A stretch of DNA of 64,000 bases from Gammaproteobacteria bacterium (GCA_965248145.1 OZ252091.1:3218082-3282081); one strand, 5' to 3'. Numbered from the stretch's first letter, positions 4,132 through 49,125 are shown. Numbers and translations: made by a program. The notes: generated by a model not told the origin, from the sequence alone.

Positions 4132-5127
4132 ATGGATTATCCGATTTACGCAAAAAAACCCTTGATCGAGAAACTTCATCACCAGGACATTGATGAACAG
4201 GCGGCCCGGCTTACCGGCTATGGGCAATCCTATCAACAGATCAGCAGGGGTTCTTTTTCCGGTACTTTCACCTCATGTGACATGGACCGTGAACTAAGTC
4301 TGTTCTTCGAATCAACCAACCAGGTGTTATATCAAAATGCCATGGTCCCACCTGGTTATTATGCGATCGGCTTGTTGATGTATACAGACAAACAGCTTGT
4401 GTTGAATTGTGAACCCTTCCCGAGAGGGGCAGCATTTATTTTGCCTCACGGGTCTGAGATGGAAGGTATTACATCTCCCGACATGAAAATATGCATCATC
4501 CATGTATCCCGTGATTTACTTAAGCGCGCATTCCAGCATCAATACCATGAACGGAAACTATTCAACCCTGAATATATTCCATTCATGCTGATAAAGAATG
4601 AAAAAGATACCAGAGACCTGTATTCACTATTGGAAGATTTTCAGACGGGGGCAGATAAAGCGCATCTTTCCCTGGAAAGTTCAAATCAGTTGGCGAACTT
4701 CAAAAATACCCTTATAGAAACTATTTGTTCACTGTTTATCGAAAAAAGCGATCCTGGCAGGGTTAATTCCAGTGTAAGAACAAGAAATAAACACCACCGG
4801 GTCTTCCATGACGCACTTGACGTCATTAAGGATAATTTATGTGAAGAGGTAACGGTCGGGAAGTTGTGTGAGGAACTGCTGGTATCACGACGTACCCTGG
4901 AATACGTATTCAATGACAATATCGAGATGAGCCCGGCCAAGTATATCAGGGCCTTGCGCCTTAATAATATCAGGAGAGAAATTCTCTCAATGGAAAATAA
5001 AACTTTGGGCGACATCGCAGCAAAATGGGGCATCTGGCACCTGGGACGATTCTCGAAGGATTACTACCAGCTTTTTGGCGAATTGCCCTCCGCGACAAAA
5101 CAGAGCATTGACCGGGGACGTAATTAA
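4132..5127 (+). CDS. AraC-family transcriptional regulator
   Basis: The C-terminal AraC-type HTH is present (VTVGKLCEELLVSRRTLEYVFNDNIEMSPAKYIRALRLNNIRREIL...). It is divergent from hppD. Confidence 0.8.
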   Translation: MDYPIYAKKPLIEKLHHQDIDEQAARLTGYGQSYQQISRGSFSGTFTSCDMDRELSLFFESTNQVLYQNAMVPPGYYAIGLLMYTDKQLVLNCEPFPRGAAFILPHGSEMEGITSPDMKICIIHVSRDLLKRAFQHQYHERKLFNPEYIPFMLIKNEKDTRDLYSLLEDFQTGADKAHLSLESSNQLANFKNTLIETICSLFIEKSDPGRVNSSVRTRNKHHRVFHDALDVIKDNLCEEVTVGKLCEELLVSRRTLEYVFNDNIEMSPAKYIRALRLNNIRREILSMENKTLGDIAAKWGIWHLGRFSKDYYQLFGELPSATKQSIDRGRN

Positions 5128-5151
5128 TTCCGTCCCCAATACCGTCCTCTG

Positions 5152-6207
5152 TCAATCAACAAGGACGCCACGCCGGACCTGGTCCTGTTCGATGGATTCA
5201 AACAGGGCCTGAAAATTTCCCTCGCCGAATCCCTCGTTGCCTTTTCGTTGAATAATTTCAAAGAAAATCGGCCCGATGACATTCCCGGTAAAGATCTGCA
5301 GTAATATCCCCTGGCCCTCCGTGGGGGCGCCGTCAATCAATATGCGCCGTTGTTTAAGCGCCTCCAGGTCTTCACCGTGACCGGCCACTCTCCGGTCTGT
5401 TTTTTCATAATAACTGTCGGGCGTCTCCTGAAATACAACGTCGTGGCTGCGTAACGCATCCACGGTTGCATAAATGTCAGCCGTTCCCAGGGCGACGTGC
5501 TGGATGCCCTCACCATGATATTCGCTCAAGTATTCTTCGATTTGCGACTTGTCGTCGGCGGACTCATTGATCGGGATACGAATCTTGCCACAGGGGCTGG
5601 TCATGGCGCGACTTTTCAACCCGGAGAGTTGCCCTTCTATATCAAAGTACTTCAGCTCACGGAAGTTAAACAATTTCTCGTAGAAGCCTGCCCACTTGTT
5701 CATATTGCCCCGGTGCACGTTGTGGGTGAGATGGTCCACATAAGTTAGTCCGGTCCGCATGACGTGATAATCGGTTTCAACGGGTTCGAAATCCACGTCA
5801 TAGATGGTCCTGTCACCATAGCGGTCAACCAGGTATAAGCGGCTCCCGCCGATACCCTCAATGGCAGGGATATTCAACTCCATGGGCCCGGGCTTTGTTT
5901 CAACGCCTCTGGCTCCGGCTTCAAGCGCGTGTGTGTACGCCCTGGCCGCGTCTTTCACCCGAAAGGCAACAGCACATATAGACGGCCCATGCAGTTCCGC
6001 GAACCGTTGAGCAAAACTGCCCGGCTCGGCGTTGATGATAAAGTTGATATCGCCCTGGGAATGTAACGTGACGTTCTTGCTCCGGTGTTTTGCCGTTGCG
6101 GGGAAGCCCATTTTTTCAAACAGGCTGAGAAGTAATTCCGGGTCGGGCGCGGTGTATTCAATAAACTCAAACCCGTCGGTACCCATGGGGTTGTGAATGT
6201 CAGTCAT
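5152..6207 (-). CDS. hppD: 4-hydroxyphenylpyruvate dioxygenase
   Basis: 351 aa with two VOC/glyoxalase modules. Strong family resemblance along the whole length (FEFIEYTAPDP..., ...GILLQIFT..., FFEIIQRKG...GFGEGNFQALFESIE). Confidence 0.85.
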   Translation of the reverse strand: MTDIHNPMGTDGFEFIEYTAPDPELLLSLFEKMGFPATAKHRSKNVTLHSQGDINFIINAEPGSFAQRFAELHGPSICAVAFRVKDAARAYTHALEAGARGVETKPGPMELNIPAIEGIGGSRLYLVDRYGDRTIYDVDFEPVETDYHVMRTGLTYVDHLTHNVHRGNMNKWAGFYEKLFNFRELKYFDIEGQLSGLKSRAMTSPCGKIRIPINESADDKSQIEEYLSEYHGEGIQHVALGTADIYATVDALRSHDVVFQETPDSYYEKTDRRVAGHGEDLEALKQRRILIDGAPTEGQGILLQIFTGNVIGPIFFEIIQRKGNEGFGEGNFQALFESIEQDQVRRGVLVD

Positions 6208-10701: not shown

Positions 10702-10732
10702 CCATACAAACCCCAAGGGGTCGCTTTCCCCC

Positions 10733-10886
10733 GTCATTCCGGCGAATGCCGGAATCCAGTGAGATAGAGAGTCGCCTCCGGCGACACGTTATTAGACTGG
10801 ATTCCGGGTCAAGCCCGGAATGACGGGGGGGGTGGCTTTCGCAGGAATGACGGGGGGCACATCTGCTATTCCCGCGGAAGCGGGAA
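10733..10886. repeat. Cluster of nested-palindrome MITE-like elements (GTCATTCC...GGAATGAC family; contains dRS3-like ATTCCC-N8-GGGAAT)
   Basis: One full copy at 10733-10826, of the form GTCATTCC-GGCGAATGCC-GGAATCCAGTG...GTCGCCTCCGGCGACAC...CTGGATTCCGGGTCAAGCCCGGAATGACG. Partial copies follow (GGAATGACGG; ATTCCCGCGGAAGCGGGAAT). The cluster sits between the convergent 3' ends of the FAD oxidase and ccmG. Confidence 0.8.
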
Positions 10887-17270: not shown

Positions 17271-17300
17271 TAAATGGACAGATTTATATTTCCGTGATCC

Positions 17301-17390
17301 GTCATTCCTGCACAAGCAGGAATCCAGCCCAATAACGTGCCGCCGAAGGCGTGTCGTTTTACTGGATTCCGGCATTCGCCGGAATGACGG
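17301..17390. repeat. MITE-like nested-palindrome element (GTCATTCC...GGAATGAC family)
   Basis: gtcattcctgcacaagcaggaatccag ... ctggattccggcattcgccggaatgacgg. It lies at the convergent 3' ends of the hypothetical CDS and the TonB receptor. Confidence 0.75.
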
Positions 17391-21212: not shown

Positions 21213-22580
21213 ATGGACCTGGCCAAACGCAAACTCATCGACCTGCAATCCTATATTGAATTCATGGAGCGGCATAACCATTTAATCCGGGTGAAAAGCG
21301 AGGTGGACCCCGACTTTGAACTGGCCGGTATTGCCAGGAAATTTGAAGGCGGCAAGGCCGTATTGTTCGAGAACGTCAAGGGCCGGGATTACCCGGTGTT
21401 GATCGGCCTCTACTGGAATCGCGACTTCCTGGCCAGGTTTTTCCAGACCACCAGCGCCCGCTTGCCTTTTGTGCTGGCCGACGATATCCGCGCCTGGCGT
21501 CAAAACCCCATCGAACCGGTTGTCGTAAAACAAGGCCCGGCCAACGAGGTGATTGAGGCTGACCCTGATCTTTCCACGCTGCCGATACCGCACCATGCCG
21601 AGGGTGACGGCGGCCATTACCTGACCTCCAGCGTCGTGATTGCAAAAGACCCGGATACAGGGGTACGCAACCTCTCCATCCATCGCATGATGGTGACCGG
21701 CAAAAACCGGTTTACCCTGTTACTGGAGGAGTTAGGCCACCTGATGGATTATTTCAAGCGGGCCGAAGCCAGGGGGCAACCCCTGGAACTCACCGTTAAC
21801 AACGGAGCGGATTATGCCCTGAGCATGGCCGCCGCGTCGCCGGCATCCGCCGCGCCGATGGAAATGGATGAAATCGGCATAGCCTGTCAGATGCACGGCG
21901 CGCCGGTCAGGTTGCTGGAAGCGCAAACCGTGGGCGTGGAAGCCTGCGCCGACGCCCAATTCGTCATTGAGGGAAGAATACTGCCAAACGTCAGGGAACC
22001 GGAAGGTCCTTACGCGGAGGTAACCGGCTACTACGCCGGTGTTGGAGACCGCTGGGTGTTTGAAGTCTCTGCCATTACCCGGCGACGCCAACCGATCTTC
22101 CATTCCATTCTTTCCGGCAAGGAAGTCTACAATGCCTACGGCCTCATCGCCGGGGCCGGCGCGTTCGATAAAATTCACAGCCTGGTACCGGAGGTCACGG
22201 CAGTGCATTTCTCCGACGGCAGCATACCCTATCACCTGGTAGTACAGATTGACAAGAAGCACGAAGGCAGCCAACGCAATGCCATCATGGCCGCCTTTGT
22301 TTCCCTGGCTTTTGTAAAAACGGTCACCGTGGTGGATACGGACGTAGACATTTACAGCCTGGCAGACGTGGATTGGGCGGTACAGACCCGCTGCCGGTTT
22401 GACCGGGATCTACTGCCTATTCCCGACTCTATCGGTCATCGCCTGAACCCCATGGTGGAAAACGACAAGTGGACCCGGCTGGGCATCGACGCCACCGTAC
22501 CGTTACCCCGGGAAGATAAATACAACCGGGCCACCATGCGCGACGTCAACCTGGACGATTTCGATATCGAGGGCGCCTGA
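21213..22580 (+). CDS. UbiD-family (prFMN-dependent) aromatic acid decarboxylase/carboxylase
   Basis: 455 aa. The UbiD N-terminal and middle domains are recognisable. No ubiX partner lies in the window. Confidence 0.75.
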   Translation: MDLAKRKLIDLQSYIEFMERHNHLIRVKSEVDPDFELAGIARKFEGGKAVLFENVKGRDYPVLIGLYWNRDFLARFFQTTSARLPFVLADDIRAWRQNPIEPVVVKQGPANEVIEADPDLSTLPIPHHAEGDGGHYLTSSVVIAKDPDTGVRNLSIHRMMVTGKNRFTLLLEELGHLMDYFKRAEARGQPLELTVNNGADYALSMAAASPASAAPMEMDEIGIACQMHGAPVRLLEAQTVGVEACADAQFVIEGRILPNVREPEGPYAEVTGYYAGVGDRWVFEVSAITRRRQPIFHSILSGKEVYNAYGLIAGAGAFDKIHSLVPEVTAVHFSDGSIPYHLVVQIDKKHEGSQRNAIMAAFVSLAFVKTVTVVDTDVDIYSLADVDWAVQTRCRFDRDLLPIPDSIGHRLNPMVENDKWTRLGIDATVPLPREDKYNRATMRDVNLDDFDIEGA

Positions 22581-22790
22581 CTTCAGGCGCACGCACACTT
22601 TTGAATCGAGGTATTACCATTCCGCGCAAGCGGAGCAGTGGCACAGAGCTTGTCCCTGCATGTTGTAAGCAGGGGGATGTGCCGTTTACGGACCAAAGGA
22701 CGGAAATCCAGTGGACAAACCTTCCTTATTTTATAGTGAAATAAACTGATGCGCCTTTCCTGTAATGAAGTTCGCGTGCGCTAGTCACGG

Positions 22791-22858
22791 GGTCAGAGTC
22801 ACGGGGTCAAGTCTTTGATTTTGGTCAGAGTCACGGGGTCAAGTCTTTGATTTTTGAT
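22791..22858. repeat. tandem direct repeat ggtcagagtcacggggtcaagtctttgatttt x2
   Basis: Two adjacent copies of about 33 bp followed by a partial inverted copy (aaatcaaagacctgagaccacgac). This is the left edge of the TA island. Confidence 0.7.
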
Positions 22859-23133
22859 ATTAACTATTGAAACTGACAAAAAGTCGATTATAAATCAAAG
22901 ACCTGAGACCACGACTAACGGTACAGGCATAGTGCAATCCTTCGTTGGCGTGGTTGTGGCATTATAACTTGCCTGGAATACTTCATCGGCTTCACAATGA
23001 TTCTGCCTACGCTACTCGCAATCATTTAACCCGGACGCACTGCGTTAAATGATTTCGCCTCTGCACCTTTTAAATTTATTTTAAAAACACTTTTTAATGT
23101 GTATCATATATTGAAATTCACATTAGAGACGAG

Positions 23134-23388
23134 GTGACTATGGAGACCCTTCTTACCAATAAGACCGTATCTGTAACCGAGTTACGCGAACCCAGGAAAG
23201 TCATCGACAAGGCGGGATCTCAACCTGTGGCAGTTCTCAATCGCTCAAACGTGGTGGGATACTTTGTCCCGGCGAGTGCCGTGGAAAAACTTGATTTCAG
23301 GGCCTGCGAAACAGGCGAAGTGATGGCTGCGCTGGATACTCTCGATGATAACGCGCTGGCGGTAAACGATTACCTCAAAGACAAGTGA
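23134..23388 (+). CDS. phd: Phd/YefM-family antitoxin
   Basis: 84 aa resembling Phd/YefM. It overlaps the downstream doc by 4 bp. Confidence 0.7.
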   Translation: MTMETLLTNKTVSVTELREPRKVIDKAGSQPVAVLNRSNVVGYFVPASAVEKLDFRACETGEVMAALDTLDDNALAVNDYLKDK

Positions 23389-23780
23389 TGCGCTATATCA
23401 CGGCTGAGCAAGTCGTTGCCATACATGAACGAGTGATACTGAGTCACGAGTTACAGGGCATAGCGAACAACCGACCTGTTGAAGCCGTGATTGGCAGGAT
23501 CGAAAACCGCCTCGCTTATGGCCTTATCGGTGACATTTACGATCTTGCCGCCTGTTACGCCTGCTATATTGCCATCGGCCACTGCTTTCACGACGCCAAC
23601 AAGCGAACCGCGCACACGGCGATGCAGGTCATCCTGAAATTGAATGGTATTCAGCTTGAGTACGATATACAAACCCTTGGAGACATGATCATAAAAGCAG
23701 CCCAAGGTATCGTCGAAGAAACGGAACTTGCAGCTTTTCTTCGAAGCTTGCCATCCATGGTTGTGGACGGTGGTCTATAA
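23385..23780 (+). CDS. doc: Doc (death-on-curing) Fic-fold toxin
   Basis: 131 aa with the Fic/Doc motif HCFHDANKRTA (HxFx[DN][AG]NKR). Confidence 0.75.
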   Translation: MMRYITAEQVVAIHERVILSHELQGIANNRPVEAVIGRIENRLAYGLIGDIYDLAACYACYIAIGHCFHDANKRTAHTAMQVILKLNGIQLEYDIQTLGDMIIKAAQGIVEETELAAFLRSLPSMVVDGGL

Positions 23781-23823
23781 TTCGCAGACATAGGAATCGA
23801 TATTATCAATCCATGGAGAGCAG

Positions 23824-25284
23824 ATGACAAAAATCGGCCGCAATGATCCCTGCCTCTGCGGCAGCGGTAAAAAATACAAGAAGTGTTGCCTGTACAAGAC
23901 CTCCTCGCCGGTTGCCAGCCTGAGCTGGCGGAAGATGCGCAGGACAGAGGGTGAGCTTATCCATACTTTGACGGGATATGTGGATAAATATTATGGCCCG
24001 GGCGCAGTGCTCGAGGCATGGGATGAGTTTACACTGTGGGATGAGGCGCCTATGGACCCGGAATCCGAACCCGAGTTGGATACCGTATTCTTTCCCTGGT
24101 TCATGTTCAACTGGATACCGGACAATATCGAGTTAGGCGAGGAGATGCATTATCCTGAAATGCAGGTAGCCATGCATTACCTGGAGAAAAGCGGAGCGCG
24201 AATCGATTCATACCAACGGCAATTCATTGGGGAAGCCTGCTCGCAGCCCTACAGCTTCTTCGTGGTTACGGGGATTATGCCTGGCAAGCAATTGACACTA
24301 CGGGACCTGCTGCTGAAGCGGGATATCACTGTTCATGAACGTCTGGCATCGACCACTCTGCACAAGGGAGCGATCCTCTATGCCCGCGTTATTACCATGG
24401 ACGATAATTCCATTATGCTGGGTTGTGCGCCCACGGTAATCCCGCCCTCCTATCTTGATTTTTTCATCGAAGTTCGTGAGGACTTTGCTGAAAAGCGTCC
24501 CGGTTACGGTCAAAATTACCTTCTGGAGTGTGACCTCGAATTACGGGATATCTATTATCAGATCCGGGAACAACTGTTTAACCCCGTTTTGCCGGAACTG
24601 CAGAACACGGATGGTGACCCGTTACAGTTGTCGAAGCTCTACTACAGGCTTAAATGTACACCTCGCGAGGGTCTCGATGCGTTGGCAACCCTGGCCCTGG
24701 TAGAGAATGCTGATGAACTCAGACACGAGGGCACATTCGATGAGCAGGGTGAACTGGTGTCCATTGAGTTCTCCTGGTTAAAGAAGGGAAATAAAAAGCA
24801 TAATGAGTGGGAAAATACCATACTGGGACACATCGTTATCAATGGCGATCAGTTGACTATTGACGTCAATTCTCAGAAGCGCGCGAACGCCATCAGACGC
24901 AAGATAGAGCGTCATCTTGGGAAACGAGCGGAATTCCGCAATGAGGTAATCCAATCTACGGAAAAACTGCTTGAGGAAATGCAAAACAGCCCGCCTGATG
25001 AGAAACAAAAAACGGCTATGCAGGAAAGTGAAGCTTTTCAGGCTATCCCGGAGGTGCGGCAGAAACTGGAAGAAATGACTGAACAGCATTGGAAAAGCTG
25101 GCTGGATGAGCCCATTCCCGCACTCAGGGATCAAACTCCGCGCGAGGCGGCAAAAACAGCAGCCGGCAGGGAGCGTCTGGAAGCGTTACTGTGGCACTAT
25201 GAGTGGCAATCAGATAAGCACAAATCCGGGCACGCGTTCAAGCCGAACATTGCAGAGATAAAGAAAACCCTGGGAATGGAATAA
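23824..25284 (+). CDS. SEC-C (SecA C-terminal-like zinc-binding) motif protein of unknown function
   Basis: N-terminal RNDPCLCGSGKKYKKCC, which is the canonical SEC-C motif. The remaining roughly 450 aa carry no motif I recognise. Confidence 0.6.
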   Translation: MTKIGRNDPCLCGSGKKYKKCCLYKTSSPVASLSWRKMRRTEGELIHTLTGYVDKYYGPGAVLEAWDEFTLWDEAPMDPESEPELDTVFFPWFMFNWIPDNIELGEEMHYPEMQVAMHYLEKSGARIDSYQRQFIGEACSQPYSFFVVTGIMPGKQLTLRDLLLKRDITVHERLASTTLHKGAILYARVITMDDNSIMLGCAPTVIPPSYLDFFIEVREDFAEKRPGYGQNYLLECDLELRDIYYQIREQLFNPVLPELQNTDGDPLQLSKLYYRLKCTPREGLDALATLALVENADELRHEGTFDEQGELVSIEFSWLKKGNKKHNEWENTILGHIVINGDQLTIDVNSQKRANAIRRKIERHLGKRAEFRNEVIQSTEKLLEEMQNSPPDEKQKTAMQESEAFQAIPEVRQKLEEMTEQHWKSWLDEPIPALRDQTPREAAKTAAGRERLEALLWHYEWQSDKHKSGHAFKPNIAEIKKTLGME

Positions 25285-25321
25285 ACTCTCCAGTAGCCCG
25301 GCTACCGGTCACATTTTTTCA

Positions 25322-25445
25322 GGCAGACTTATTTGGTGACCGGTTTCAAGCCCAGTTTGTTCTTGTACCAGTCCGTCGCCGCCGGGAGATCACTGTAATA
25401 AAAAAACGCCCCCCCCTGCTATGGATGGATGTCCGTCATCTGCTG
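25322..25445 (+). other. diverged partial duplicate of the 5' end of the VOC gene at 28231-28725 (island-boundary direct repeat)
   Basis: 25337-25440 aligns at about 85% identity with 28553-28656. The conserved core is gtttgttcttgtaccagtccg.cgccgccgg.agatc..tgtaataaaaaaacg...ctgctatggatggatg. Confidence 0.7.
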
Positions 25446-25469
25446 CGTGAGTCACTGAGTCACGGGCTG

Positions 25470-25650
25470 CGAGATCAGGGTCGGACCTACATATCTGGGG
25501 TCGGACCTACATATCTGTTTGTTTTAATTCATTTTACATCTCACTAACATCTGTTATCTCTCCTTAAAGCACCCATTTTACTATCCAAATGGGGACTGTA
25601 AGACCGGGCACTTTCTTGATAGTACCACCCTATAATCAGGGCTATTATGG
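25470..25650. repeat. approximately 180-bp repeat, copy A (begins with a duplicated gggtcggacctacatatctg)
   Basis: Highly similar to 26275-26460. Shared blocks are ctgtttgttttaattcakttta.atct..t..ta..tctgttat.tctccttaaagc..ccatttt.ctatc.aaatggg.a.tgtaagac...gg...tt.cttgatag.a...t.cataatcagggctatt. Confidence 0.8.
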
Positions 25651-25804
25651 GTATCCAGGTAATTCACTCACAGATGCATCAAAAATGCGGTTGATGTGGT
25701 GAGAGGCGCTTCCAGCCTGAAACATCTTGCGACACAGTCGGCCTTGATTGCATTGCAATCATTGTGTAGAATATCGATCAATGCAAACAGCGAACGGTAA
25801 GGCC

Positions 25805-26047
25805 ATGGCGAGTATTACAATCCGCAATCTTGATAACGAAGTGAAAACACAACTCCGCATAAGAGCGGCTGGTCATGGCCGTTCGATGGAGGAGGAGGCG
25901 CGCATGATCCTGCGCGAAGCGGTTGAGCGAGAAGGCGGTCCAACAAATCTCGCGAGCGCCATCCGCGCCCGCTTTGTACACTTGGGCGGTGTGGAGTTAG
26001 ACTTGCCGCCGCGTGAACCAATGCGCGAACCACCCAAGTTCGAGTGA
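25805..26047 (+). CDS. VapB/FitA-like ribbon-helix-helix antitoxin
   Basis: MASITIRNLDNEVKTQLRIRAAGHGRSMEEEARMILREAV... A Shine-Dalgarno sequence aagg lies 5 nt upstream of ATG 25805. Confidence 0.65.
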   Translation: MASITIRNLDNEVKTQLRIRAAGHGRSMEEEARMILREAVEREGGPTNLASAIRARFVHLGGVELDLPPREPMREPPKFE

Positions 26048-26057
26048 GGATACGAGG

Positions 26058-26234
26058 ATGTTTATTCTTGACACCAATGTTGTTTCCGAACTGATGCGTC
26101 CAACGCCGAATCCGATTGTAGTGGACTGGGTAGCGGGACATGCAGCAGCGAACCTGTTTTTCTCGGCAGTGGGCGAGGACGCTCGCCTCCTGCCGAACGA
26201 CCGGGTAAGTCGTAGAGAGAACCCAAGCCGATAA
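26058..26234 (+). pseudogene. truncated vapC (PIN-domain toxin), N-terminal roughly 59 aa only
   Basis: MFILDTNVVSELMRPTPNPIVVDWV is a canonical VapC/FitB N-terminus. The ORF terminates after 59 codons, whereas a full PIN toxin is about 130 aa. Confidence 0.65.
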
Positions 26235-26274
26235 CAAGGTTATGGCGAACATTACATCCCAAGGCAGTCAGCCC

Positions 26275-26460
26275 CATGGTGGGCCGGACCTGCATAACTG
26301 TTTGTTTTAATTCAGTTTATATCTTATTCATACCTGTTATTTCTCCTTAAAGCGTCCATTTTCCTATCAAAATGGGAGATGTAAGACACAGGCTTTTCCT
26401 TGATAGCAACATTCCATAATCAGGGCTATTGTCGGGGCTATTATGGGTGTCCCAATAATG
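26275..26460. repeat. approximately 180-bp repeat, copy B
   Basis: Direct repeat of 25470-25650. Together the two copies bracket the degenerate vapBC. Confidence 0.8.
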
Positions 26461-26600
26461 GTACTAATACAATAAATATATTGTAATTTATTAAATTACT
26501 ATTAATATATTGTTTTCTAGTTATTTAACTATTAATATATTGTTTTTTGGTTATTTAACTATTAATATGATGTTTCTATTAATCAACATCTGTAATAATT

Positions 26601-26936
26601 ATGAAAACACTGACTGAACTTTCTTCCGAGCTTGGGAAACGTCGGCGATACCTGGCGCTGAATCAAACAGATATGTTGATGAAGGTTGGCATGTCACAGC
26701 AGCAATACCAGCGTGTTGAGGCAGGTAGCGACATGCGGGTTTCCACTCTTTTACGTATCCTGGAAGGCATGGGGCTAGAGCTCATGCTGGCGCCTCAAGA
26801 GCGAGTTCGACAACTGGAGAAAATACTGAGCTCGGATGATTACGATAATGTCCTCCTGCCCGCCGAGGTTGACTGGCAGGATGAGGTCAAAGAATCAGCC
26901 TGGTCTTCAGTGCTGTCAGAGCTTGAGGATGAATAA
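26601..26936 (+). CDS. hipB: HipB-like XRE-family HTH antitoxin
   Basis: 111 aa with an XRE HTH (LALNQTDMLMKVGMSQQQYQRVEAG). It sits immediately upstream of hipA. Confidence 0.75.
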   Translation: MKTLTELSSELGKRRRYLALNQTDMLMKVGMSQQQYQRVEAGSDMRVSTLLRILEGMGLELMLAPQERVRQLEKILSSDDYDNVLLPAEVDWQDEVKESAWSSVLSELEDE

Positions 26937-26938
26937 AA

Positions 26939-28207
26939 ATGGAGGAGACAAGCCGACAGGTAGAATCTGTAGAAGCATTGCAACTGACCCTGCATGGACA
27001 AAGAGTCGGAATTGTCACGCATTACTCCGGCGGTAAAAACATATTAACCTTCGACCCTGAATACCGGGCCATGACGGAAGAAACTCGAGCAACGATGACG
27101 CTGACCCAAAGGATAAATCCGAACTACCTTGACAAGGTATTGAGAAGTTCACAGAGAGTGCCACCCGTCATATCCAACCTGCTACCGGAAGGCGCTCTAC
27201 GGGAGTGGATGTCAACAACGTTGAAAATACACCCTGCAAACGAGTTCCCTTTACTGGCTTGGGTTGGCAACAACCTGCCCGGGGCTATCATTGCCGGTCC
27301 TGTGCCTGGCGGCCGGATTCCCGCTTGGGCCTTGTCTGCTAGAGACCAGGTGGAAGCGGTTCAAATTAACGTTAAAGGGACTGCACAAAAGTTTTCACTT
27401 GCCGGCGTACAAATGAAATTTTCCACCACCAGACAGGACGGACGCTACAACATCAGCGCTGAGCTGGGCGCAGACAGTTGGATTGTTAAAACACCGTCCA
27501 CGGTTCACAGGAATGTGCCGGAAAATGAATACAGCGCAATGAAGCTGGCTGAAGCAATCGCCGTGGACATTCCCGAGATAGAGCTCATTTCCCTGGATTC
27601 ACTGGACAACTTACCTGAAATTCAGTTACCGGACGAATCGTTTGCTTATGCTATCCGCCGATTTGACCGTGACGCTCAGGGACGCATACATACGGAAGAC
27701 TTTGCCCAGGTATTCGAGTTGTATGCTCACGACAAGTACGGAAAAAGTAATTATGAACAAATTGCCGCCGCACTTTATCGCTTTGGCGCGGACGGACTGG
27801 AAGACATACAACAAATGACTCGCCGGCTCCTGGCGAATATCCTGCTGGCCAATGGTGATGCCCATTTGAAGAACTGGACGTTGATTTACCCTGACACCAT
27901 CAATCCAAGGCTGGCGCCGGCATACGATATCGTTTCGACCTTACCCTATATCCGGAGCGAAACGGGTATCGCATTGAATCTTGGTAAACGGAAAGAATGG
28001 TACTCCATGGATTTGACAACGTTTCAAACCTGGGCCCAGCGAACAGGCATCCCATGGCCTGCCGTGAAGGTGCATTTGCTTGATGCCCTGACAGCGGCCC
28101 GCGACTTATGGCCCCGGATGTTGCAAGATCTGCCCATGCAGGAGACACACAAGGAAGTCCTCAAATCCCATTGGTCGAAGCTGCCGGCAGATTTTAAATT
28201 ACTGTAG
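26939..28207 (+). CDS. hipA: HipA-family serine/threonine kinase toxin
   Basis: 422 aa. The N-terminal domain carries SLAGVQMKFS. The C-terminal catalytic motif is ANILLANGDAHLKNWTLIY. Confidence 0.85.
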   Translation: MEETSRQVESVEALQLTLHGQRVGIVTHYSGGKNILTFDPEYRAMTEETRATMTLTQRINPNYLDKVLRSSQRVPPVISNLLPEGALREWMSTTLKIHPANEFPLLAWVGNNLPGAIIAGPVPGGRIPAWALSARDQVEAVQINVKGTAQKFSLAGVQMKFSTTRQDGRYNISAELGADSWIVKTPSTVHRNVPENEYSAMKLAEAIAVDIPEIELISLDSLDNLPEIQLPDESFAYAIRRFDRDAQGRIHTEDFAQVFELYAHDKYGKSNYEQIAAALYRFGADGLEDIQQMTRRLLANILLANGDAHLKNWTLIYPDTINPRLAPAYDIVSTLPYIRSETGIALNLGKRKEWYSMDLTTFQTWAQRTGIPWPAVKVHLLDALTAARDLWPRMLQDLPMQETHKEVLKSHWSKLPADFKLL

Positions 28208-28230
28208 CCCCGCAGTCGTTTTAACGAAAA

Positions 28231-28725
28231 TTATTTGCTATAGCGTTGCGCTTCCGGGCGGCTGTCTTTCCAGCGGAAGAACTCGACGATATATCCTTCC
28301 GGATCCTTCAGGCTGAATTGTTCGATCATCCCGTCAGCACCCGTTATGATGCCGTTGACGATCTCCATGCCCTCCAGGTCTTTCACCTTATCCCACCAGG
28401 CTTCCAGTTCCGCCGTATCGATGGAGAGCAAGGCGCCTTTGTCCGCGGTCGGCTTCAACGCCCCGCCGGAGGCATTCACCAGGCCGATAGAGGAAGTGGG
28501 CGTCAGTTCGAAAATGACCACCCAGTCTTCTTCGGTGGTCGCTTTAAGGCCGAGTTTGTTCTTGTACCAGTCCGCCGCCGCCGGCAGATCGTTGTAATAA
28601 AAAAACGGAACGCCACCTGCTATGGATGGATGGCTGGAATCTGCAACGACTGCCGTAGTTCCGACTAACACACTGAAAACCAGGCCGACGAGAAAGACAG
28701 ATACGGATTTCATGTTTACATTCAT
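28231..28725 (-). CDS. VOC-family (glyoxalase/bleomycin-resistance fold) protein with signal peptide
   Basis: 164 aa. N-terminal signal MKSVSVFLVGLVFSVLVGTTAVVA. The VOC fold is recognisable. The 5' end of this gene is duplicated at 25322-25445. Confidence 0.65.
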   Translation of the reverse strand: MNVNMKSVSVFLVGLVFSVLVGTTAVVADSSHPSIAGGVPFFYYNDLPAAADWYKNKLGLKATTEEDWVVIFELTPTSSIGLVNASGGALKPTADKGALLSIDTAELEAWWDKVKDLEGMEIVNGIITGADGMIEQFSLKDPEGYIVEFFRWKDSRPEAQRYSK

Positions 28726-35865: not shown

Positions 35866-36339
35866 ATGAATAAAAACACAACCGAACATGCCGTGGATTT
35901 CACCACACTCAATGGGTTGATCGGCTTTCAGGTCCGGCAGGCGCAGCTCCAGGTTTTCAACCATTTCCGGAAAACAGTCGGAAAAACGGGAATCACGCCA
36001 GGCCAGGCCGGTATTCTCATTTTAATCGGGAATAATCCTGCTATCAGCCAAGCTGCCCTGGCCCGCGCTATTGGGGTGGAACGGGCCACGCTGGGTCAAA
36101 TCATCGCGGACATGGAGGCCAAATCCTGGGTGGAACGCCATCCATCCCATTCAGACAAGCGCAGTTACGCGCTGGCACTGTCATCATCCGGCAAGACCTT
36201 CCTGGAAAAAATGTTGCAGAAGATCACTGTCCATGAGCAGGACATGATCGCTCACTTAAGCATAAAAGAACGACGGGAATTTCTGCGTTTGTTACTTAAA
36301 TTTTCCGGTGTTGATAGACATGACGACAAACGTGGCTGA
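35866..36339 (+). CDS. MarR-family transcriptional regulator
   Basis: 157 aa with a MarR wHTH (GITPGQAGILILIGNNPAISQAALARAIGVERATLGQIIADME). Divergent from the hcr-like operon. Confidence 0.8.
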   Translation: MNKNTTEHAVDFTTLNGLIGFQVRQAQLQVFNHFRKTVGKTGITPGQAGILILIGNNPAISQAALARAIGVERATLGQIIADMEAKSWVERHPSHSDKRSYALALSSSGKTFLEKMLQKITVHEQDMIAHLSIKERREFLRLLLKFSGVDRHDDKRG

Positions 36340-36547
36340 TAACGCCATGCTGTTGGCAGTCCTGGCAGGTTACAACAGAAAACAGACCGCTGGCGGCGCC
36401 TGCAGGTAGTTCCCTTTACATGGGCATAGCAATATATTTACCTCTTTTTATCAGTCTTAAATTCAGATAATAAGTGCAACACCCGAAGAAATCAGCCAGC
36501 TGGTATATTTCACGGGTCTTGATAAGTACCAGCGAAACGGTTAAAGT

Positions 36548-37637: not shown

Positions 37638-39134
37638 ATGACATTCAAACTACCCGACAGGGACGAATTGAAAACCATTGCCGGTTCCATGGGATTGACT
37701 GTGGATGACACACTGGCGGAAACCATGCTTGAACAACTGGCAATGTTCGGCGGCGGCTATCAATTCATGGATCAACTGGAAGATAACCTGCCGGAAATCC
37801 AATATCCTCACAGGAGTTATCGACCCCCGACCGGGGAAGAAAACCCACTGGGCGCCTGGTACGTCAGGACTGACCTGAAAGGCAGGGACGCGGGACCGCT
37901 CAAGGACAGGACGGTTGCCGTCAAGGATAATATCTTTGTCGCAAATGTTCCCATGATGAACGGCGCTTCGATCCTGGAAGGTTTCATACCGGACTTCGAT
38001 GCCACCGTCGTTACCCGGTTGCTGGATGCCGGCGCTGAGATTACCGGCAAGGCGGTATGTGAATTTCTTTGTGTTTCCGGCGGCAGCGCCACAGCCAGTT
38101 CCGGCGTTGTCAGCAACCCGCATGATCACGATTACTCTGCCGGCGGTTCTTCCTCAGGCAGCGCTGCGCTGGTCGCCAACGGTGACGTGGATATGGCTTT
38201 GGGCTGCGACCAGGCCGGTTCGGTGCGCATTCCGTCGAGTTTCTGTGCTGTCTACGGTATGAAGGCCACTCACGGCCTGCTCCCCTACACGGGCATCATG
38301 GGCATGGAGGCCATGTTGGACCATGTCGGCCCCATGACGACAAACGTGGCCGATAACGCCCTGCTGCTGGAAGTCCTGGCGGGTTACGACGGGATGGACA
38401 GCCGCCAACGCCAATTACGAGTGCATAAATACACTGAGGCGCTCGGTGAGGATATCAGGGGAATGAAAATCGCCGTGGTCAAAGAGGGCTTTGGTCATCC
38501 CCTGTCGGAACCCGGGGTTGATCATTGTGTGCGTGACGCGGCAAGTCAATTCGCCGAGATCGGCGCGGAGGTGGCTGAAGTATCCATCCCCATGCACCTG
38601 GATGGCGTCCCTCTCTGGGGCAGTATTATCACTGACGGGCTTTGGGATACCATGCGCCATAACGGTCTCGCCGTAAACACCAACGGCTTTAACTCGCCGG
38701 CGTTGGAAAAATTCATGTCCGGCTGGCAGGATAAATTCGACCGGTTTCCCGTCAACCTGCACCTGATCCTGGTGCTGGGCAAGTACCTGGAGAAATATCA
38801 GGGCAAGTATTACGCCAAAGCAAAAAATCACCTGCCGAAACTGGCCAAGGCCTATAACGATGTCTTGCAGGATCATGACCTGTTACTGATGCCGACGACG
38901 TTGATGCAACCGCAAAAGAATCCGGCGCCTGACTCAGACCCTACCGAAAATATTATATTCATGGCGTTTAACACGGTACTCAATACCTGTCAGTTCGATA
39001 TTACCGGCCACCCGGCGATGTCGCTGCCGTGCGGCCGGCGCAACGGCCTGCCCGTAGGCATGATGCTGGTAGGCAAACACTTTGACGAACCGGCTATCTA
39101 CCGGGCTGCCTACGGGTTTGAACAGTCTTGTTAG
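37638..39134 (+). CDS. amidase (amidase-signature family)
   Basis: 498 aa. The AS signature GGSSSGSAALVANG and the Ser-cisSer-Lys triad context are present. Confidence 0.8.
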   Translation: MTFKLPDRDELKTIAGSMGLTVDDTLAETMLEQLAMFGGGYQFMDQLEDNLPEIQYPHRSYRPPTGEENPLGAWYVRTDLKGRDAGPLKDRTVAVKDNIFVANVPMMNGASILEGFIPDFDATVVTRLLDAGAEITGKAVCEFLCVSGGSATASSGVVSNPHDHDYSAGGSSSGSAALVANGDVDMALGCDQAGSVRIPSSFCAVYGMKATHGLLPYTGIMGMEAMLDHVGPMTTNVADNALLLEVLAGYDGMDSRQRQLRVHKYTEALGEDIRGMKIAVVKEGFGHPLSEPGVDHCVRDAASQFAEIGAEVAEVSIPMHLDGVPLWGSIITDGLWDTMRHNGLAVNTNGFNSPALEKFMSGWQDKFDRFPVNLHLILVLGKYLEKYQGKYYAKAKNHLPKLAKAYNDVLQDHDLLLMPTTLMQPQKNPAPDSDPTENIIFMAFNTVLNTCQFDITGHPAMSLPCGRRNGLPVGMMLVGKHFDEPAIYRAAYGFEQSC

Positions 39135-47798: not shown

Positions 47799-47851
47799 AA
47801 GGTGTCGCCCCCTGCTCAACACCATGCTGGGGCAGGCTCCGGCGACTCCTT
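47799..47851. repeat. 53-bp perfect direct repeat, left copy (aaggtgtcgccccctgctcaacaccatgctggggcaggctccggcgactcctt)
   Basis: Identical to 48906-48958. The pair brackets the Rpn pseudogene. Confidence 0.85.
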
Positions 47852-48905: not shown

Positions 48906-48958
48906 CAAGGTGTCGCCCCCTGCTCAACACCATGCTGGGGCAGGCTCCGGCGACTCCT
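48906..48958. repeat. 53-bp perfect direct repeat, right copy
   Basis: Identical to 47799-47851. Confidence 0.85.
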
Positions 48959-49125
48959 TGCCCACTGAGTTAACGAACCAAAAAACGCAATCACATCGCA
49001 GTTGCACTCAGCGCCTGTCTGTGTCATCATCCTGCTATTGTTTCATTACAGGAATATTATTGTGAATATAAAACAGTTAACCGGCGTTCCCATGGCACCT
49101 TTAACATCCACAGATGGTGACCTTT

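What the first reader, a model, noticed from the sequence alone, without database searches (positions are those of the whole stretch)
22581..28660. A roughly 6-kb toxin-antitoxin island inserted next to a VOC gene, bounded by a diverged duplicate of that gene's 5' end
Between the UbiD-like gene and the VOC gene lie Phd/Doc, a SEC-C-motif protein, a decayed vapBC and hipBA. Sequence 25337-25440 is an approximately 85%-identical copy of 28553-28656, the N-terminal coding end of the minus-strand VOC gene. A second copy of the gene's 5' end therefore sits 3 kb away with vapBC' and hipBA between the two copies. This looks like an insertion that duplicated target sequence, or two successive insertions. 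Repeat elements mark the left edge (22791-22858), and a partial MITE fragment (ggaaatccagtggacaaacc, about 22700) lies there too. No integrase is present, so the mobilisation mechanism is unknown.
Basis: seen in the sequence. Interest (0 to 1): 0.65.

Follow-up and report, generated by a model that had tools for sequence, protein, structure and literature searches.

The report
Patchwork toxin-antitoxin hotspot with gene relics
The stretch between a UbiD-like gene and a VOC gene is a fast-changing spot where toxin-antitoxin and defence genes are repeatedly gained, shuffled and eroded, and the "second copy" of the VOC gene is an old, broken leftover rather than the footprint of one insertion; this is an ordinary, already described kind of region.

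Summary
The repeat is real. Window 25324-25447 matches 28523-28644 at 82-85% identity (E 2e-29). It covers VOC codons about 27-65, not the gene's 5' end, and it carries a frameshift and a stop.

It is no closer to the genome's own VOC (82%) than to VOC genes of other species (80-85%). It is far more diverged than the closest relative's genome is (L041, 94-96%). It is therefore not a target-site duplication.

In 36 related genomes the UbiD-to-VOC interval runs from 70 bp to more than 10 kb. It holds different toxin-antitoxin and defence genes and many gene relics.

The window's interval (22581-28230) is a patchwork:
- two MITE-like repeats and an 11-codon stub of an MmeI-type restriction gene;
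- phd-doc and a SEC-C/DUF2384 gene module;
- the VOC relic;
- vapB plus a vapC cut to 40 codons, bracketed by a second, unreported repeat of about 200 bp;
- a sharply bounded hipBA module that sits in other contexts elsewhere.

No recombinase gene, shared att core or attC-like site was found. The best reading is stepwise recombination and deletion in a permissive spot between convergent genes. This is a new member of a known kind, of low to moderate interest.

The parts
21213..22580 (+). UbiD-family decarboxylase gene: conserved left flank of the hotspot
   Evidence: Pfam UbiD_N/UbiD/UbiD_C. It is 71-95% identical in 33 related genomes (plus one distant 36% hit), and was used as the anchor for comparison.
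22586..22720 (.).
   Evidence: It matches L010 17968-18103 at 80% and a piece of L006 5848-5885 at 89%. It is also present at this position in L041, where the alignment runs continuously from 21321 to 22780. Terminal repeats and target duplication were not determined.
22736..22781 (+). Relic of an MmeI-family type IIG restriction-modification gene: native 5' UTR (22736-22748), the start codon at 22749 and 10 further codons
   Evidence: It aligns to the start of full-length MmeI genes that follow UbiD in L012, L015, L010 and L041. Pfam finds MmeI_N/hel/Mtase/TRD/C in the L012 protein. Homology stops at 22781|22782, where MITE 2 begins.
22782..22916 (.). MITE-like repeat 2: a complete unit at 22829-22916 with 25-30 nt terminal inverted repeats, preceded by extra partial left ends (22782-22828, including the 2 x 32 bp tandem repeat)
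   Evidence: Inverted repeats I2 and I3 and tandem repeat D18. There are two full copies and one end fragment in L041, at 5124-5262, 6087 onward and about 7140. It sits exactly at the junction where, relative to L041, 4.65 kb are missing (the MmeI body, a 257-aa gene and RHH_6-PIN_3).
23134..23780 (+). phd-doc type II toxin-antitoxin pair (antitoxin 23134-23388, Doc toxin 23385-23780, 4-nt overlap)
   Evidence: Doc hits Pfam Fic/DOC and TIGR01550 above its cut-off, and the HxFxDANKR motif is present. The antitoxin matches YafN/Phd only weakly. Window 23027-23743 is 92% identical to L003, and 22829-23754 is 93% identical to L041.
23824..25343 (+). SEC-C-motif / DUF2384 (Xre_MbcA_ParS_C) protein gene (23824-25284) plus its terminator region: a separate module
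   Evidence: Pfam. The family is widespread, with more than 1,200 relatives. The closest homologues (71-76% aa) lie in unrelated loci among TA and Abi genes. DNA homology to L038 runs 23830-25334 at 82% and ends where the VOC homology starts.
25324..25450 (-). VOC' relic: codons about 27-65 of a VOC gene, with a 2-nt deletion and a stop codon; bases 25324-25343 are a junction zone that resembles both the SEC-C module and VOC
   Evidence: (D11). Identity is 82-85% to the resident VOC and 80-85% to VOC of L003, L005, L014, L019, L041 and L045. The translation reads AADDGHPSIAGG/FFYYSDLPAATDWYKNKLGLKPVTK*.
25449..25663 (+). Repeat R1, with a tandemly doubled 20-nt subrepeat GGTCGGACCTACATATCTG at 25479-25517
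   Evidence: (D7, D15, D20). It is about 80% identical to R2, and a third copy lies in L010 16777-16882 downstream of an intact vapBC. It shows no significant fold (z -1.2 and -1.8) and has no Rfam hit.
25781..26047 (+). vapB antitoxin gene (FitA-like ribbon-helix-helix), apparently intact
   Evidence: Pfam FitA-like_RHH at 72.7 bits. It is 63% identical to L010 VapB and 54% to L038 VapB.
26058..26234 (+). vapC' : a truncated PIN toxin gene. Only the first 40 codons (26058-26177) are homologous to VapC; the tail is unrelated.
   Evidence: tblastn with the intact 145-aa L010 VapC matches residues 6-45 only. It has no Pfam or NCBIfam hit. The tail 26193-26237 is also present in L041.
26255..26459 (+). 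Repeat R2
   Evidence: Its right part (26356-26459) is conserved in L041 next to hipBA.
26468..28212 (+). hipBA module: four 30-bp AT-rich operator-like repeats (26462-26580), hipB (26601-26936) and hipA (26939-28207)
   Evidence: Pfam HipA_C, Couple_hipA and HTH. The module has sharp ends and is 78-88% identical in other contexts. These are L042 (between the AFOR and ECH genes), L043/L044 (next to dioxygenase genes and rplQ) and L045 (directly after UbiD). L041 has the same position as the window (HipA 93% aa, DNA 96%).
28231..28725 (-). Intact VOC/glyoxalase-family gene with an N-terminal signal-peptide-like segment: right flank of the hotspot. It contains the second repeat copy at 28523-28656.
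   Evidence: Pfam Glyoxalase. Orthologues followed by the SNF transporter gene occur in L003, L005, L006, L014, L019, L041 and L045.

Best explanation
The interval between the convergent UbiD-like and VOC genes is a high-turnover genomic spot in a clade of uncultured, apparently sponge-associated Gammaproteobacteria. Small self-contained toxin-antitoxin (TA) and defence modules are gained there, rearranged, and eroded by deletion.

The window's 5.65-kb interval is a patchwork built by several separate events. It is not one mobile element.

The VOC' fragment is the remnant of an older or foreign VOC copy. That copy once lay between phd-doc and the vapBC-hipBA block. It was trimmed from both sides. 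The R1 end cut it at about codon 27. The SEC-C gene module cut it at about codon 65, across a short stretch of microhomology.

The most likely route is inferred, not shown. DNA from a related genome carrying R-vapBC-R-hipBA plus a VOC gene recombined homologously in the VOC/SNF flank. Its other end joined illegitimately inside the resident VOC. This is homology-facilitated illegitimate recombination, and it leaves 'relic + insert + complete gene'. A second, similar or deletional event then brought SEC-C up against the relic.

MITE-like repeats and the R repeats supplied further breakpoints. These explain the loss of the MmeI gene body at MITE 2 and the truncation of vapC next to R2.

Functionally, phd-doc and hipBA look intact. 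vapB is an orphan antitoxin next to a dead toxin gene.
For: Shown by the data:
- Hypervariability. The UbiD-to-VOC spacing is 70 bp in L004, about 0.9 kb in L005, 1.7-2.2 kb in L014, L006 and L019, and 6.5 kb in L003. Among the 17 close relatives that share the Hexapep-UbiD neighbourhood, VOC is absent within 10 kb, or within the sequence available on short contigs, in the others.
- Varied content. The interval holds vapBC, mazEF, other hipBA, ParE, MmeI, Fic, a double-GTPase system and an IS3 fragment in different genomes.
- Relics are common in this spot: amidohydrolase' in L003 and L045, hipA' in L045, MmeI' in L003, L008 and the window, and doc::vapB' in L041.
- The closest relative, L041 (94-96% DNA identity), shares MITE 1, the start of MmeI, MITE 2, phd-doc, the vapB 3' end, the vapC' tail, the right part of R2, hipBA and VOC. 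It keeps the 4.65 kb that the window lost at MITE 2. It lacks the doc 3' end through the vapB 5' part.
- Modules have independent histories. SEC-C occurs in three other loci. hipBA has sharp ends and occurs in at least four contexts.
- VOC' is equidistant from all VOC alleles, at 80-85%.
- VOC' abuts the end of SEC-C-module homology on one side and R1 on the other. About 10-20 bp at 25324-25343 resemble both partners.
- A parallel case exists in L008. There, an MmeI stub (ATG + 41 nt, with the native upstream sequence), an 8.25-kb insert and a complete MmeI gene with a foreign upstream sequence lie in that order.
- No recombinase gene lies within +/-10 kb and no att core is shared by the edges.
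- Published work describes the same behaviour of chromosomal TA loci: small spots, high turnover and toxin pseudogenisation (PMC13617665).
Against: - No donor genome carrying R-vapBC-R-hipBA-VOC in that order, and no intermediate with a longer VOC', was found. The order of events and the one-sided-homology mechanism are therefore inferred.
- The microhomology at the SEC-C/VOC' junction rests on one comparison (L038), which is only 82% identical.
- With about 115 informative bases, the origin of VOC' cannot be resolved. It could be a foreign allele or an old local duplicate.
- Only about 20 kb per relative and 64 kb of this genome could be read. The copy numbers of R and of the MITE-like repeats, and any distant recombinase or VOC paralogue, are unknown.
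- The sponge association is inferred from MAG names only.
Confidence: 0.72

Rival explanations
1. One mobile element of 3-6 kb inserted next to or into VOC and duplicated about 120 bp of target sequence. The two VOC copies would then be its target-site duplication.
For: Two direct copies in the same orientation bracket vapBC'-hipBA.
Against: - The copies are only 82-85% identical, while the closest relative's genome is 94-96% identical. VOC' is equally distant from VOC genes of other species.
- The fragment is internal, and different modules cut it on each side.
- The pieces between the copies have separate histories: hipBA moves alone, and R and vapBC occur in L010.
- Target duplications of known transposable elements are a few bp to a few tens of bp long and identical when made (established knowledge).
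Confidence: 0.03
2. A site-specific integrative element, whose integrase has since been lost, integrated into VOC and carried its own replacement piece of the gene. This is how e14 and phage 21 behave at icd in E. coli. VOC' and VOC would be the attL and attR sides.
For: - A diverged duplicate of part of a gene at the far end of an island is the classic footprint of such elements (established knowledge).
- L008 shows a 41-bp MmeI 5' repeat, 38 of 41 identical, bracketing an 8.25-kb insert.
Against: - The geometry is wrong for VOC. The fragment lies beyond the 3' end of the intact gene and lacks both gene ends. An element replacing a gene end would leave the displaced end on the other side.
- No integrase gene lies within +/-10 kb.
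- No core sequence is shared by the island edges.
- The interior is a mosaic with independent histories.
Confidence: 0.05
3. An old local tandem duplication of VOC occurred in this lineage. The left copy then decayed and was eaten away by later insertions and deletions.
For: - The orientation is the same and the two copies are close together.
- VOC' carries six unique changes, a frameshift and a stop, as expected for a neutrally decaying copy.
Against: - VOC' is not closer to the resident VOC than to orthologues of other species.
- It shares residues (DDGHP, YYSD, LKP) with the L004, L005 and L045 alleles rather than with the resident gene (DSSHP, YYND, LKA).
- The duplication would therefore have to predate species splits, yet no other genome shows two VOC copies.
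Confidence: 0.17
4. An integron-like cassette array without an integrase (CALIN). TA cassettes would be separated by recombination sites, and the R repeats would be attC-like sites.
For: - TA cassettes are frequent in chromosomal integrons (established knowledge).
- R copies bracket vapBC', and one follows vapBC in L010.
- All island genes point the same way.
Against: - R does not fold into the long imperfect hairpin of an attC site (z -1.2 and -1.8).
- R has no RYYYAAC...GTTRRRY ends (read from the sequence).
- There are only two copies in 64 kb, none at the other module borders, and no IntI gene.
- The hipBA module ends exactly at its stop codon, with no site.
Confidence: 0.03

Closest known systems
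Chromosomal toxin-antitoxin 'spots' of high gene turnover (Belot, Payelleville, Jurenas, Rocha, Van Melderen 2026, PMC13617665)
   Same: - It is a small interval between two conserved genes.
- Several type II TA pairs are co-located.
- Content differs between related genomes.
- The toxin alone is pseudogenised (vapC') while the antitoxin is kept.
- The same TA family is acquired repeatedly at the same spot (hipBA in the window, L041 and L045).
- The spot does not stabilise its neighbourhood.
   Different: - Here the TA pairs share the spot with defence genes in relatives (MmeI, a double-GTPase system, Fic). That study found such co-location to be rare.
- No transposase or integrase is left in the window.
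- The host is an uncultured marine clade, not Photorhabdus.
Homology-facilitated illegitimate recombination: a one-sided homologous anchor plus a microhomology joint, as described for Acinetobacter and Streptococcus transformation (own knowledge of the literature; the term was checked)
   Same: - The predicted product, 'relic of the anchor gene + foreign insert + complete gene', matches VOC' ... VOC in the window and MmeI' ... MmeI in L008.
- One junction shows a short ambiguous stretch that resembles both partners.
   Different: - Nothing here shows the process itself.
- No donor was identified.
- Natural competence of the host is unknown.
- A second event is needed to explain the loss of VOC' codons 66-164.
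Gene-end duplication by integrative elements (e14 and phage 21 at icd in E. coli; elements at tRNA genes)
   Same: A diverged partial duplicate of a flanking gene lies at the far side of inserted DNA.
   Different: - There is no integrase and no shared core.
- The fragment is internal to the gene and lies on the wrong side of it.
- The insert is a mosaic.
Defence islands / integration hotspots between core genes in bacterial pangenomes
   Same: The same pair of flanking genes holds different defence and TA cargo in different genomes (MmeI, Fic, double-GTPase system, mazEF, vapBC, hipBA, parE).
   Different: The spot is small (0.07 to more than 10 kb). In this window it carries only TA genes and relics. 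No mobile-element hallmark genes are present.

Membership tests
Type II TA: Phd/Doc | Doc toxin with a Fic fold and the HxFx(D/N)(A/G)NKR motif | tested here: met
   Pfam Fic/DOC at 36 bits (cut-off 24) and TIGR01550 at 63.4 bits (cut-off 38.65). HCFHDANKR is visible in the translation.
Type II TA: Phd/Doc | A small antitoxin gene directly upstream, overlapping the toxin gene and of the Phd/YefM family | tested here: inconclusive
   The 84-aa ORF overlaps doc by 4 nt. It has no Pfam hit, and its only NCBIfam hit is weak (YafN, 29 bits against a cut-off of 99).
Type II TA: HipBA | HipA kinase with the N-terminal coupling domain and the HipA_C domain, preceded by an HTH HipB | tested here: met
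   HipA_C at 159.6 bits and Couple_hipA at 57 bits. HipB hits HTH_3 weakly (22.6 bits against 23). The two genes are 2 nt apart. Kinase activity was not tested.
Type II TA: VapBC (FitAB-like) | An intact PIN-domain toxin | tested here: not met
   Only 40 N-terminal codons match VapC, and no PIN hit is found. VapB itself is intact (FitA-like_RHH, 72.7 bits).
Genomic TA spot / hotspot (interval between conserved flanking genes with variable content) | The same flanking genes with different content across related genomes | tested here: met
   Searches show an interval from 70 bp to more than 10 kb with at least eight different contents.
Integrative element with att duplication | A tyrosine or serine recombinase gene in or next to the element | tested here: not met
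   No such Pfam family appears among the called genes within +/-10 kb or in the island ORFs.
Integrative element with att duplication | An identical or near-identical core repeated at both ends, with geometry that restores the target gene | tested here: not met
   The longest exact direct match between the edges is 10 bp, which is chance level. VOC' is 82% identical, internal to the gene, and lies 3' of the intact gene.
Integron cassette array / CALIN | attC sites (imperfect palindromes with R''/R' boxes) at cassette borders | tested here: not met
   The R repeats do not fold significantly and lack the boxes. The other borders have no repeat.
MITE (for the 22782-22916 element) | A short non-coding element with terminal inverted repeats, present in several copies | tested here: met
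   The terminal repeats are 25-30 nt long and 77-80% complementary. L041 has two full copies plus one end fragment. The target-site duplication and the parent transposase were not determined.
Transposon target-site duplication (for VOC'/VOC) | Short direct repeats, identical at formation, that immediately flank one element | tested here: not met
   The repeat is about 120 bp at 82-85% identity and equidistant from foreign alleles. The flanked DNA is a mosaic.

The most novel reading that the evidence does not exclude
The recurrent pattern 'short 5'-proximal relic of a flanking gene + insert + complete gene' may be the footprint of a specific way of capturing modules at this spot that needs no recombinase gene in cis. 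The pattern is seen as VOC' ... VOC here and as MmeI' ... MmeI in L008. The MmeI stubs of L008 and the window end only 8 nt apart. The R repeat, with its paired 20-nt subrepeats, or the MITE-like ends might serve as the recombination sites. If so, this would be a cassette system for TA and defence genes distinct from integrons.
Probability: 0.07. Interest if true: 0.7.

Novelty: new member of a known kind. Interest (0 to 1): 0.27.

Why it matters
The region is a clear, well-resolved example of how chromosomal toxin-antitoxin loci are gained, shuffled and eroded. It comes from uncultured, apparently sponge-associated bacteria for which many closed genomes now exist.

The relics (VOC', MmeI', vapC', doc::vapB' in L041) give breakpoints at single-base resolution. 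These could be used to study recombinase-free module exchange.

It does not change the current understanding of TA islands. It also removes the suggestion of a new mobile element with a 120-bp target duplication.

Tried and rejected
- Rfam (gathering thresholds) and tRNA scans of the whole window found nothing. There is therefore no tRNA-type integration site and no known RNA in R.
- Folding R on both strands gave no significant structure.
- Two metagenome contigs pattern scans for the conserved R core were run. The first found nothing. The second gave one hit (L037) in an AT-rich, unrelated genome inside a long ORF, which I judged a chance match.
- nhmmer with the three R copies against all fetched loci returned no hits beyond those already found by blastn.
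- A protein search with the repaired VOC' peptide, meant to find its closest allele, failed. The first query was too short, and the second found no candidates sharing words. The origin of VOC' therefore stays unresolved.
- tblastn of all hotspot ORFs of relatives against the window found no further relics, for example none of the 448-aa amidohydrolase.
- A search for a shared att-like core at the two island edges gave only chance-level matches.
- Promoter and terminator scans were no better than shuffles.
- I considered R as the upstream leader of the hipBA module. This was rejected because hipBA copies in L042, L043 and L045 lack R.
- I considered VOC' as cargo of the SEC-C module. This was rejected because homology to L038 stops at the VOC' border.

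Full report
**1. Checking the observation**

- A UbiD-family gene (21213-22580) and a VOC/glyoxalase gene (28231-28725, minus strand) converge on a 5.65-kb interval.
- The interval holds a phd-like/doc pair, a SEC-C-motif protein with a C-terminal Xre_MbcA_ParS_C (DUF2384) domain, a FitA-like vapB, a truncated vapC, and hipBA.

The claimed repeat is real.
- 25324-25408 vs 28523-28607 is 85% identical (D11).
- 122 nt are 82% identical, with E 2e-29 inside the window.
- The local alignment score is 76, against 9.8 +/- 1.3 for shuffles.

The fragment is not the 5' end of VOC.
- On the minus strand it reads AADDGHPSIAGG / FFYYSDLPAATDWYKNKLGLKPVTK*.
- That corresponds to codons about 27-65, with a 2-nt deletion and a stop codon.
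- The start codon, the signal-peptide part, the promoter and the C-terminal 100 codons are all missing.

**2. What else is in the interval**

Several features were not in the finding.
- A second direct repeat of about 200 bp (R1 25449-25663 and R2 about 26255-26459, about 80% identical) brackets vapB-vapC'. R1 starts with a doubled 20-nt subrepeat.
- Window 22736-22781 is the 5' UTR, start codon and 10 further codons of an MmeI-family type IIG restriction-modification gene. That gene follows UbiD intact in L012, L015, L010 and L041.
- Homology to MmeI stops at 22781|22782, where a MITE-like element begins. The element spans 22782-22916, with 25-30 nt terminal inverted repeats.
- Window 22586-22720 is another MITE-like repeat, with copies in L010 and L006.
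- vapC keeps only 40 N-terminal codons of a PIN toxin of about 140 codons.
- Four 30-bp AT-rich repeats lie upstream of hipB (D9).
- No Rfam family and no tRNA gene is present.
- No recombinase gene is called within +/-10 kb.

**3. Source and relatives**

The window comes from a closed 3.77-Mb contig of a metagenome assembly. A scan of one genome per species with the UbiD protein returned 34 loci. Most are MAGs labelled Gammaproteobacteria. Several names suggest a sponge origin, but that is my inference from the names only.

**4. Comparative anatomy of the UbiD-VOC interval**

In L004 the VOC gene follows UbiD after 70 bp. Other genomes hold different content.
- L005 has about 0.9 kb with no clear gene.
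- L014 has a 448-aa amidohydrolase gene.
- L006 and L019 have a PIN_3 vapBC-like pair (its antitoxin ORF has no Pfam hit) plus the amidohydrolase gene.
- L003 has an amidohydrolase relic, phd-doc (92% identical to the window's), an MmeI N-terminal relic, an IS3 integrase-core fragment, DUF3800, mazEF and an unrelated hipBA on the other strand.
- L008, L010, L012 and L015 have MmeI and other cargo.
- L008 carries a Fic protein and a five-gene double-GTPase conflict system.
- L045 is a second, related genome from the same sample. It has the window's type of hipBA directly after UbiD, then an amidohydrolase relic, mazEF, a hipA relic and VOC.

The interval is therefore a spot of high turnover that collects toxin-antitoxin (TA) and defence genes and is littered with relics. 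The window's full arrangement is not conserved. SEC-C, VOC' and R1 were found at this position only in this genome.

**5. The closest relative, L041**

HipA of L041 is 93% identical to the window's, and shared DNA is 94-96% identical. Its order is:

UbiD | MITE 1 | MmeI (complete) | 257-aa gene | MITE 2 | RHH_6-PIN_3 | MITE 2 | phd-doc fused to the last ~21 codons of vapB | vapC' tail | a 70-bp piece | right part of R2 | hipBA | VOC | SNF.

Compared with L041, two differences stand out.
- The window lacks 4.65 kb (the MmeI body up to the second MITE 2 copy). The junction lies exactly at extra MITE 2 end pieces.
- L041 lacks everything from the doc 3' end to the vapB 5' part.

Both genomes are therefore deletion derivatives of richer ancestors. 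The vapC truncation and R2 predate their split.

**6. Modules with independent histories**

*SEC-C module.*
- The SEC-C gene family is widespread, with more than 1,200 relatives.
- The three closest homologues (71-76% aa) lie in unrelated loci among TA and Abi genes.
- DNA homology to L038 covers 23830-25334, which is the gene plus its terminator, and nothing else.

*hipBA module.*
- It spans 26468-28212 and has sharp ends, from the first operator-like repeat to 5 nt past the stop codon.
- It occurs at 78-88% identity in four other contexts.

*R.*
- The only other R copy found is in L010, downstream of an intact vapBC whose VapB is 63% identical.

**7. What the VOC' fragment is**

Over the 115 alignable bases, identity to the various VOC genes is as follows:

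| VOC allele | Identity to VOC' |
|---|---|
| Resident VOC | 82% |
| L041 | 82% |
| L003 | 84-85% |
| L045 | 84% |
| L005, L014, L019 | 80-82% |

This is the same range as between VOC orthologues of different species (70-85%; three closely related genomes reach 94-97%).

Of the 21 differences from the resident gene:
- at 6 sites VOC' keeps the state shared by all six outgroups;
- at 6 sites VOC' has a change of its own.

Its residues DDGHP, YYSD and LKP resemble the L004, L005 and L045 alleles rather than the resident DSSHP, YYND and LKA.

The fragment is therefore old or foreign, and it is not a fresh copy of the neighbouring gene.
- Its left border coincides with the end of the SEC-C module. 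Bases 25324-25343 (CAGACTTATTTGGTGACCGG) resemble both the L038 sequence downstream of SEC-C and VOC codons 62-66. This suggests a joint at microhomology.
- Its right border abuts R1.
- The two island edges share no att-like core.

**8. Most likely mechanism**

*Shown.* The region is a multi-event patchwork in a hypervariable spot. The VOC' relic is bounded by two different modules. Deletions end at dispersed repeats.

*Inferred.* The arrangement 'relic + insert + complete gene' is what homologous recombination in one flank, plus an illegitimate joint inside the resident copy of the same gene, would produce.
- Incoming DNA carrying R-vapBC-R-hipBA-VOC would cross over in VOC/SNF.
- Its other end would join at about VOC codon 27 of the resident gene.
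- A later event would bring SEC-C to about codon 65 and remove the rest.

L008 offers a mirror case.
- It has an MmeI stub with native upstream sequence, an 8.25-kb insert, and a complete MmeI gene with foreign upstream sequence.
- The 41-bp repeat is 38/41 identical.

The convergent orientation of UbiD and VOC makes the interval permissive, because insertions there break no promoter.

*Function of the parts* (from family knowledge; not tested here).
- Doc is a Fic-fold kinase of EF-Tu.
- HipA is a kinase of aminoacyl-tRNA synthetases.
- Both pairs look intact.
- VapB is left as an orphan antitoxin beside a dead toxin gene.

**9. Comparison with what is known**

The behaviour matches the published description of chromosomal TA loci (PMC13617665):
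- clustering in small spots between core genes;
- high turnover;
- repeated acquisition at the same place;
- frequent loss by deletion or toxin pseudogenisation.

It differs from integrative elements that duplicate a gene end (e14 at icd) in geometry, in lacking an integrase and in lacking a core. It differs from integron arrays in lacking attC-like sites. See the membership table.

**10. Verdict**

The repeat and the gene content are right, but the repeat is not the gene's 5' end.
The region is a variable TA island and 'successive events' fits. 'Target duplication by one insertion' is rejected.
- This is a new member of a known kind. It is interesting mainly as a clean natural record of module exchange and erosion.
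- The nature of the R repeat, and the recurrence of 5'-proximal stubs, remain unexplained. They are the only route to something more novel, which I rate as unlikely.

Noticed in passing
L008:11409-19750: In a relative, an MmeI gene stub (start codon + 41 nt, with native upstream sequence) and a complete MmeI gene with a different upstream sequence bracket an 8.25-kb insert. The insert encodes a Fic protein and a five-gene double-GTPase conflict system (GAP1-N1, DO-GTPase1, DO-GTPase2, GASH, GAAD-metallophosphatase). The 41-bp direct repeat is 38/41 identical. The stub ends only 8 nt beyond the window's stub.
   Followed up: partly
window 26462-26580: Four AT-rich repeats with 30-bp spacing (core AACTATTAATATATTGTTTT, partly palindromic) lie directly upstream of hipB. 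They are conserved with the hipBA module in L041, L042 and L043, so they probably form a HipB operator array. The lowest GC of the region (0.36) is here.
   Followed up: partly
window 26468-28212; L042:7529-9274; L043:7560-9270; L045:8585-10262: The hipBA module has base-sharp ends, from the first operator repeat to 5 nt after the stop codon. It sits in at least four different genomic contexts in related genomes without any flanking repeat or recombinase gene. How it moves is unexplained.
   Followed up: partly
window 25449-25663 and 26255-26459; L010:16777-16882: The R repeat is about 200 bp long. It begins with two copies of a 20-nt subrepeat (GGTCGGACCTACATATCTG) followed by CTGTTTGTTTTAATTCA. 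A small hairpin in it shows one compensatory change between R1 and R2. It has no Rfam hit and no significant fold, and it was not found in JGI metagenomes. Its nature is unknown.
   Followed up: partly
window 23824-25284; L038:6001-8695: The SEC-C-motif protein carries an antitoxin-type DUF2384 domain at its C-terminus but has no RES/ParT/MbcT-type toxin gene next to it. The family is large, with more than 1,200 relatives of about 480 aa. Some members are fused to PRiA4_ORF3/'IS1096 passenger' domains. In L038 its closest homologue is also followed by a FitA-like vapB and an intact PIN gene.
   Followed up: partly
L041:6646-7128: In the closest relative the doc ORF is fused in frame to the last ~21 codons of vapB, giving a 160-aa product. 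This is a deletion joint that removed the doc C-terminus, so Doc may be inactive there.
   Followed up: no
L045:7090-8456: In the related genome from the same sample, UbiD is called as two ORFs of 406 aa and 66 aa, although the DNA aligns full-length at 89%. This is either a frameshift or a long-read assembly error (20x coverage).
   Followed up: no
window 56691-57185, 10731-10834, 17299-17372: Three tandem 165-bp units at 56691-57185 are built from a palindromic MITE-like repeat family (CCGTCATTCC...GGAATCCAGTGA / GAGTCGCC...GGCGAC). Single copies of the family lie at about 10.7 kb and 17.3 kb.
   Followed up: no
window 47799-47851 and 48907-48959: A perfect 53-bp direct repeat with 1,108 bp start-to-start spacing (D14). 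It was not examined.
   Followed up: no
window 36319-36376 and 38333-38390: A 58-bp stretch is 90% identical between two positions 2 kb apart. It probably reflects two paralogous amidase-type genes (D13; an amidase is annotated nearby).
   Followed up: no
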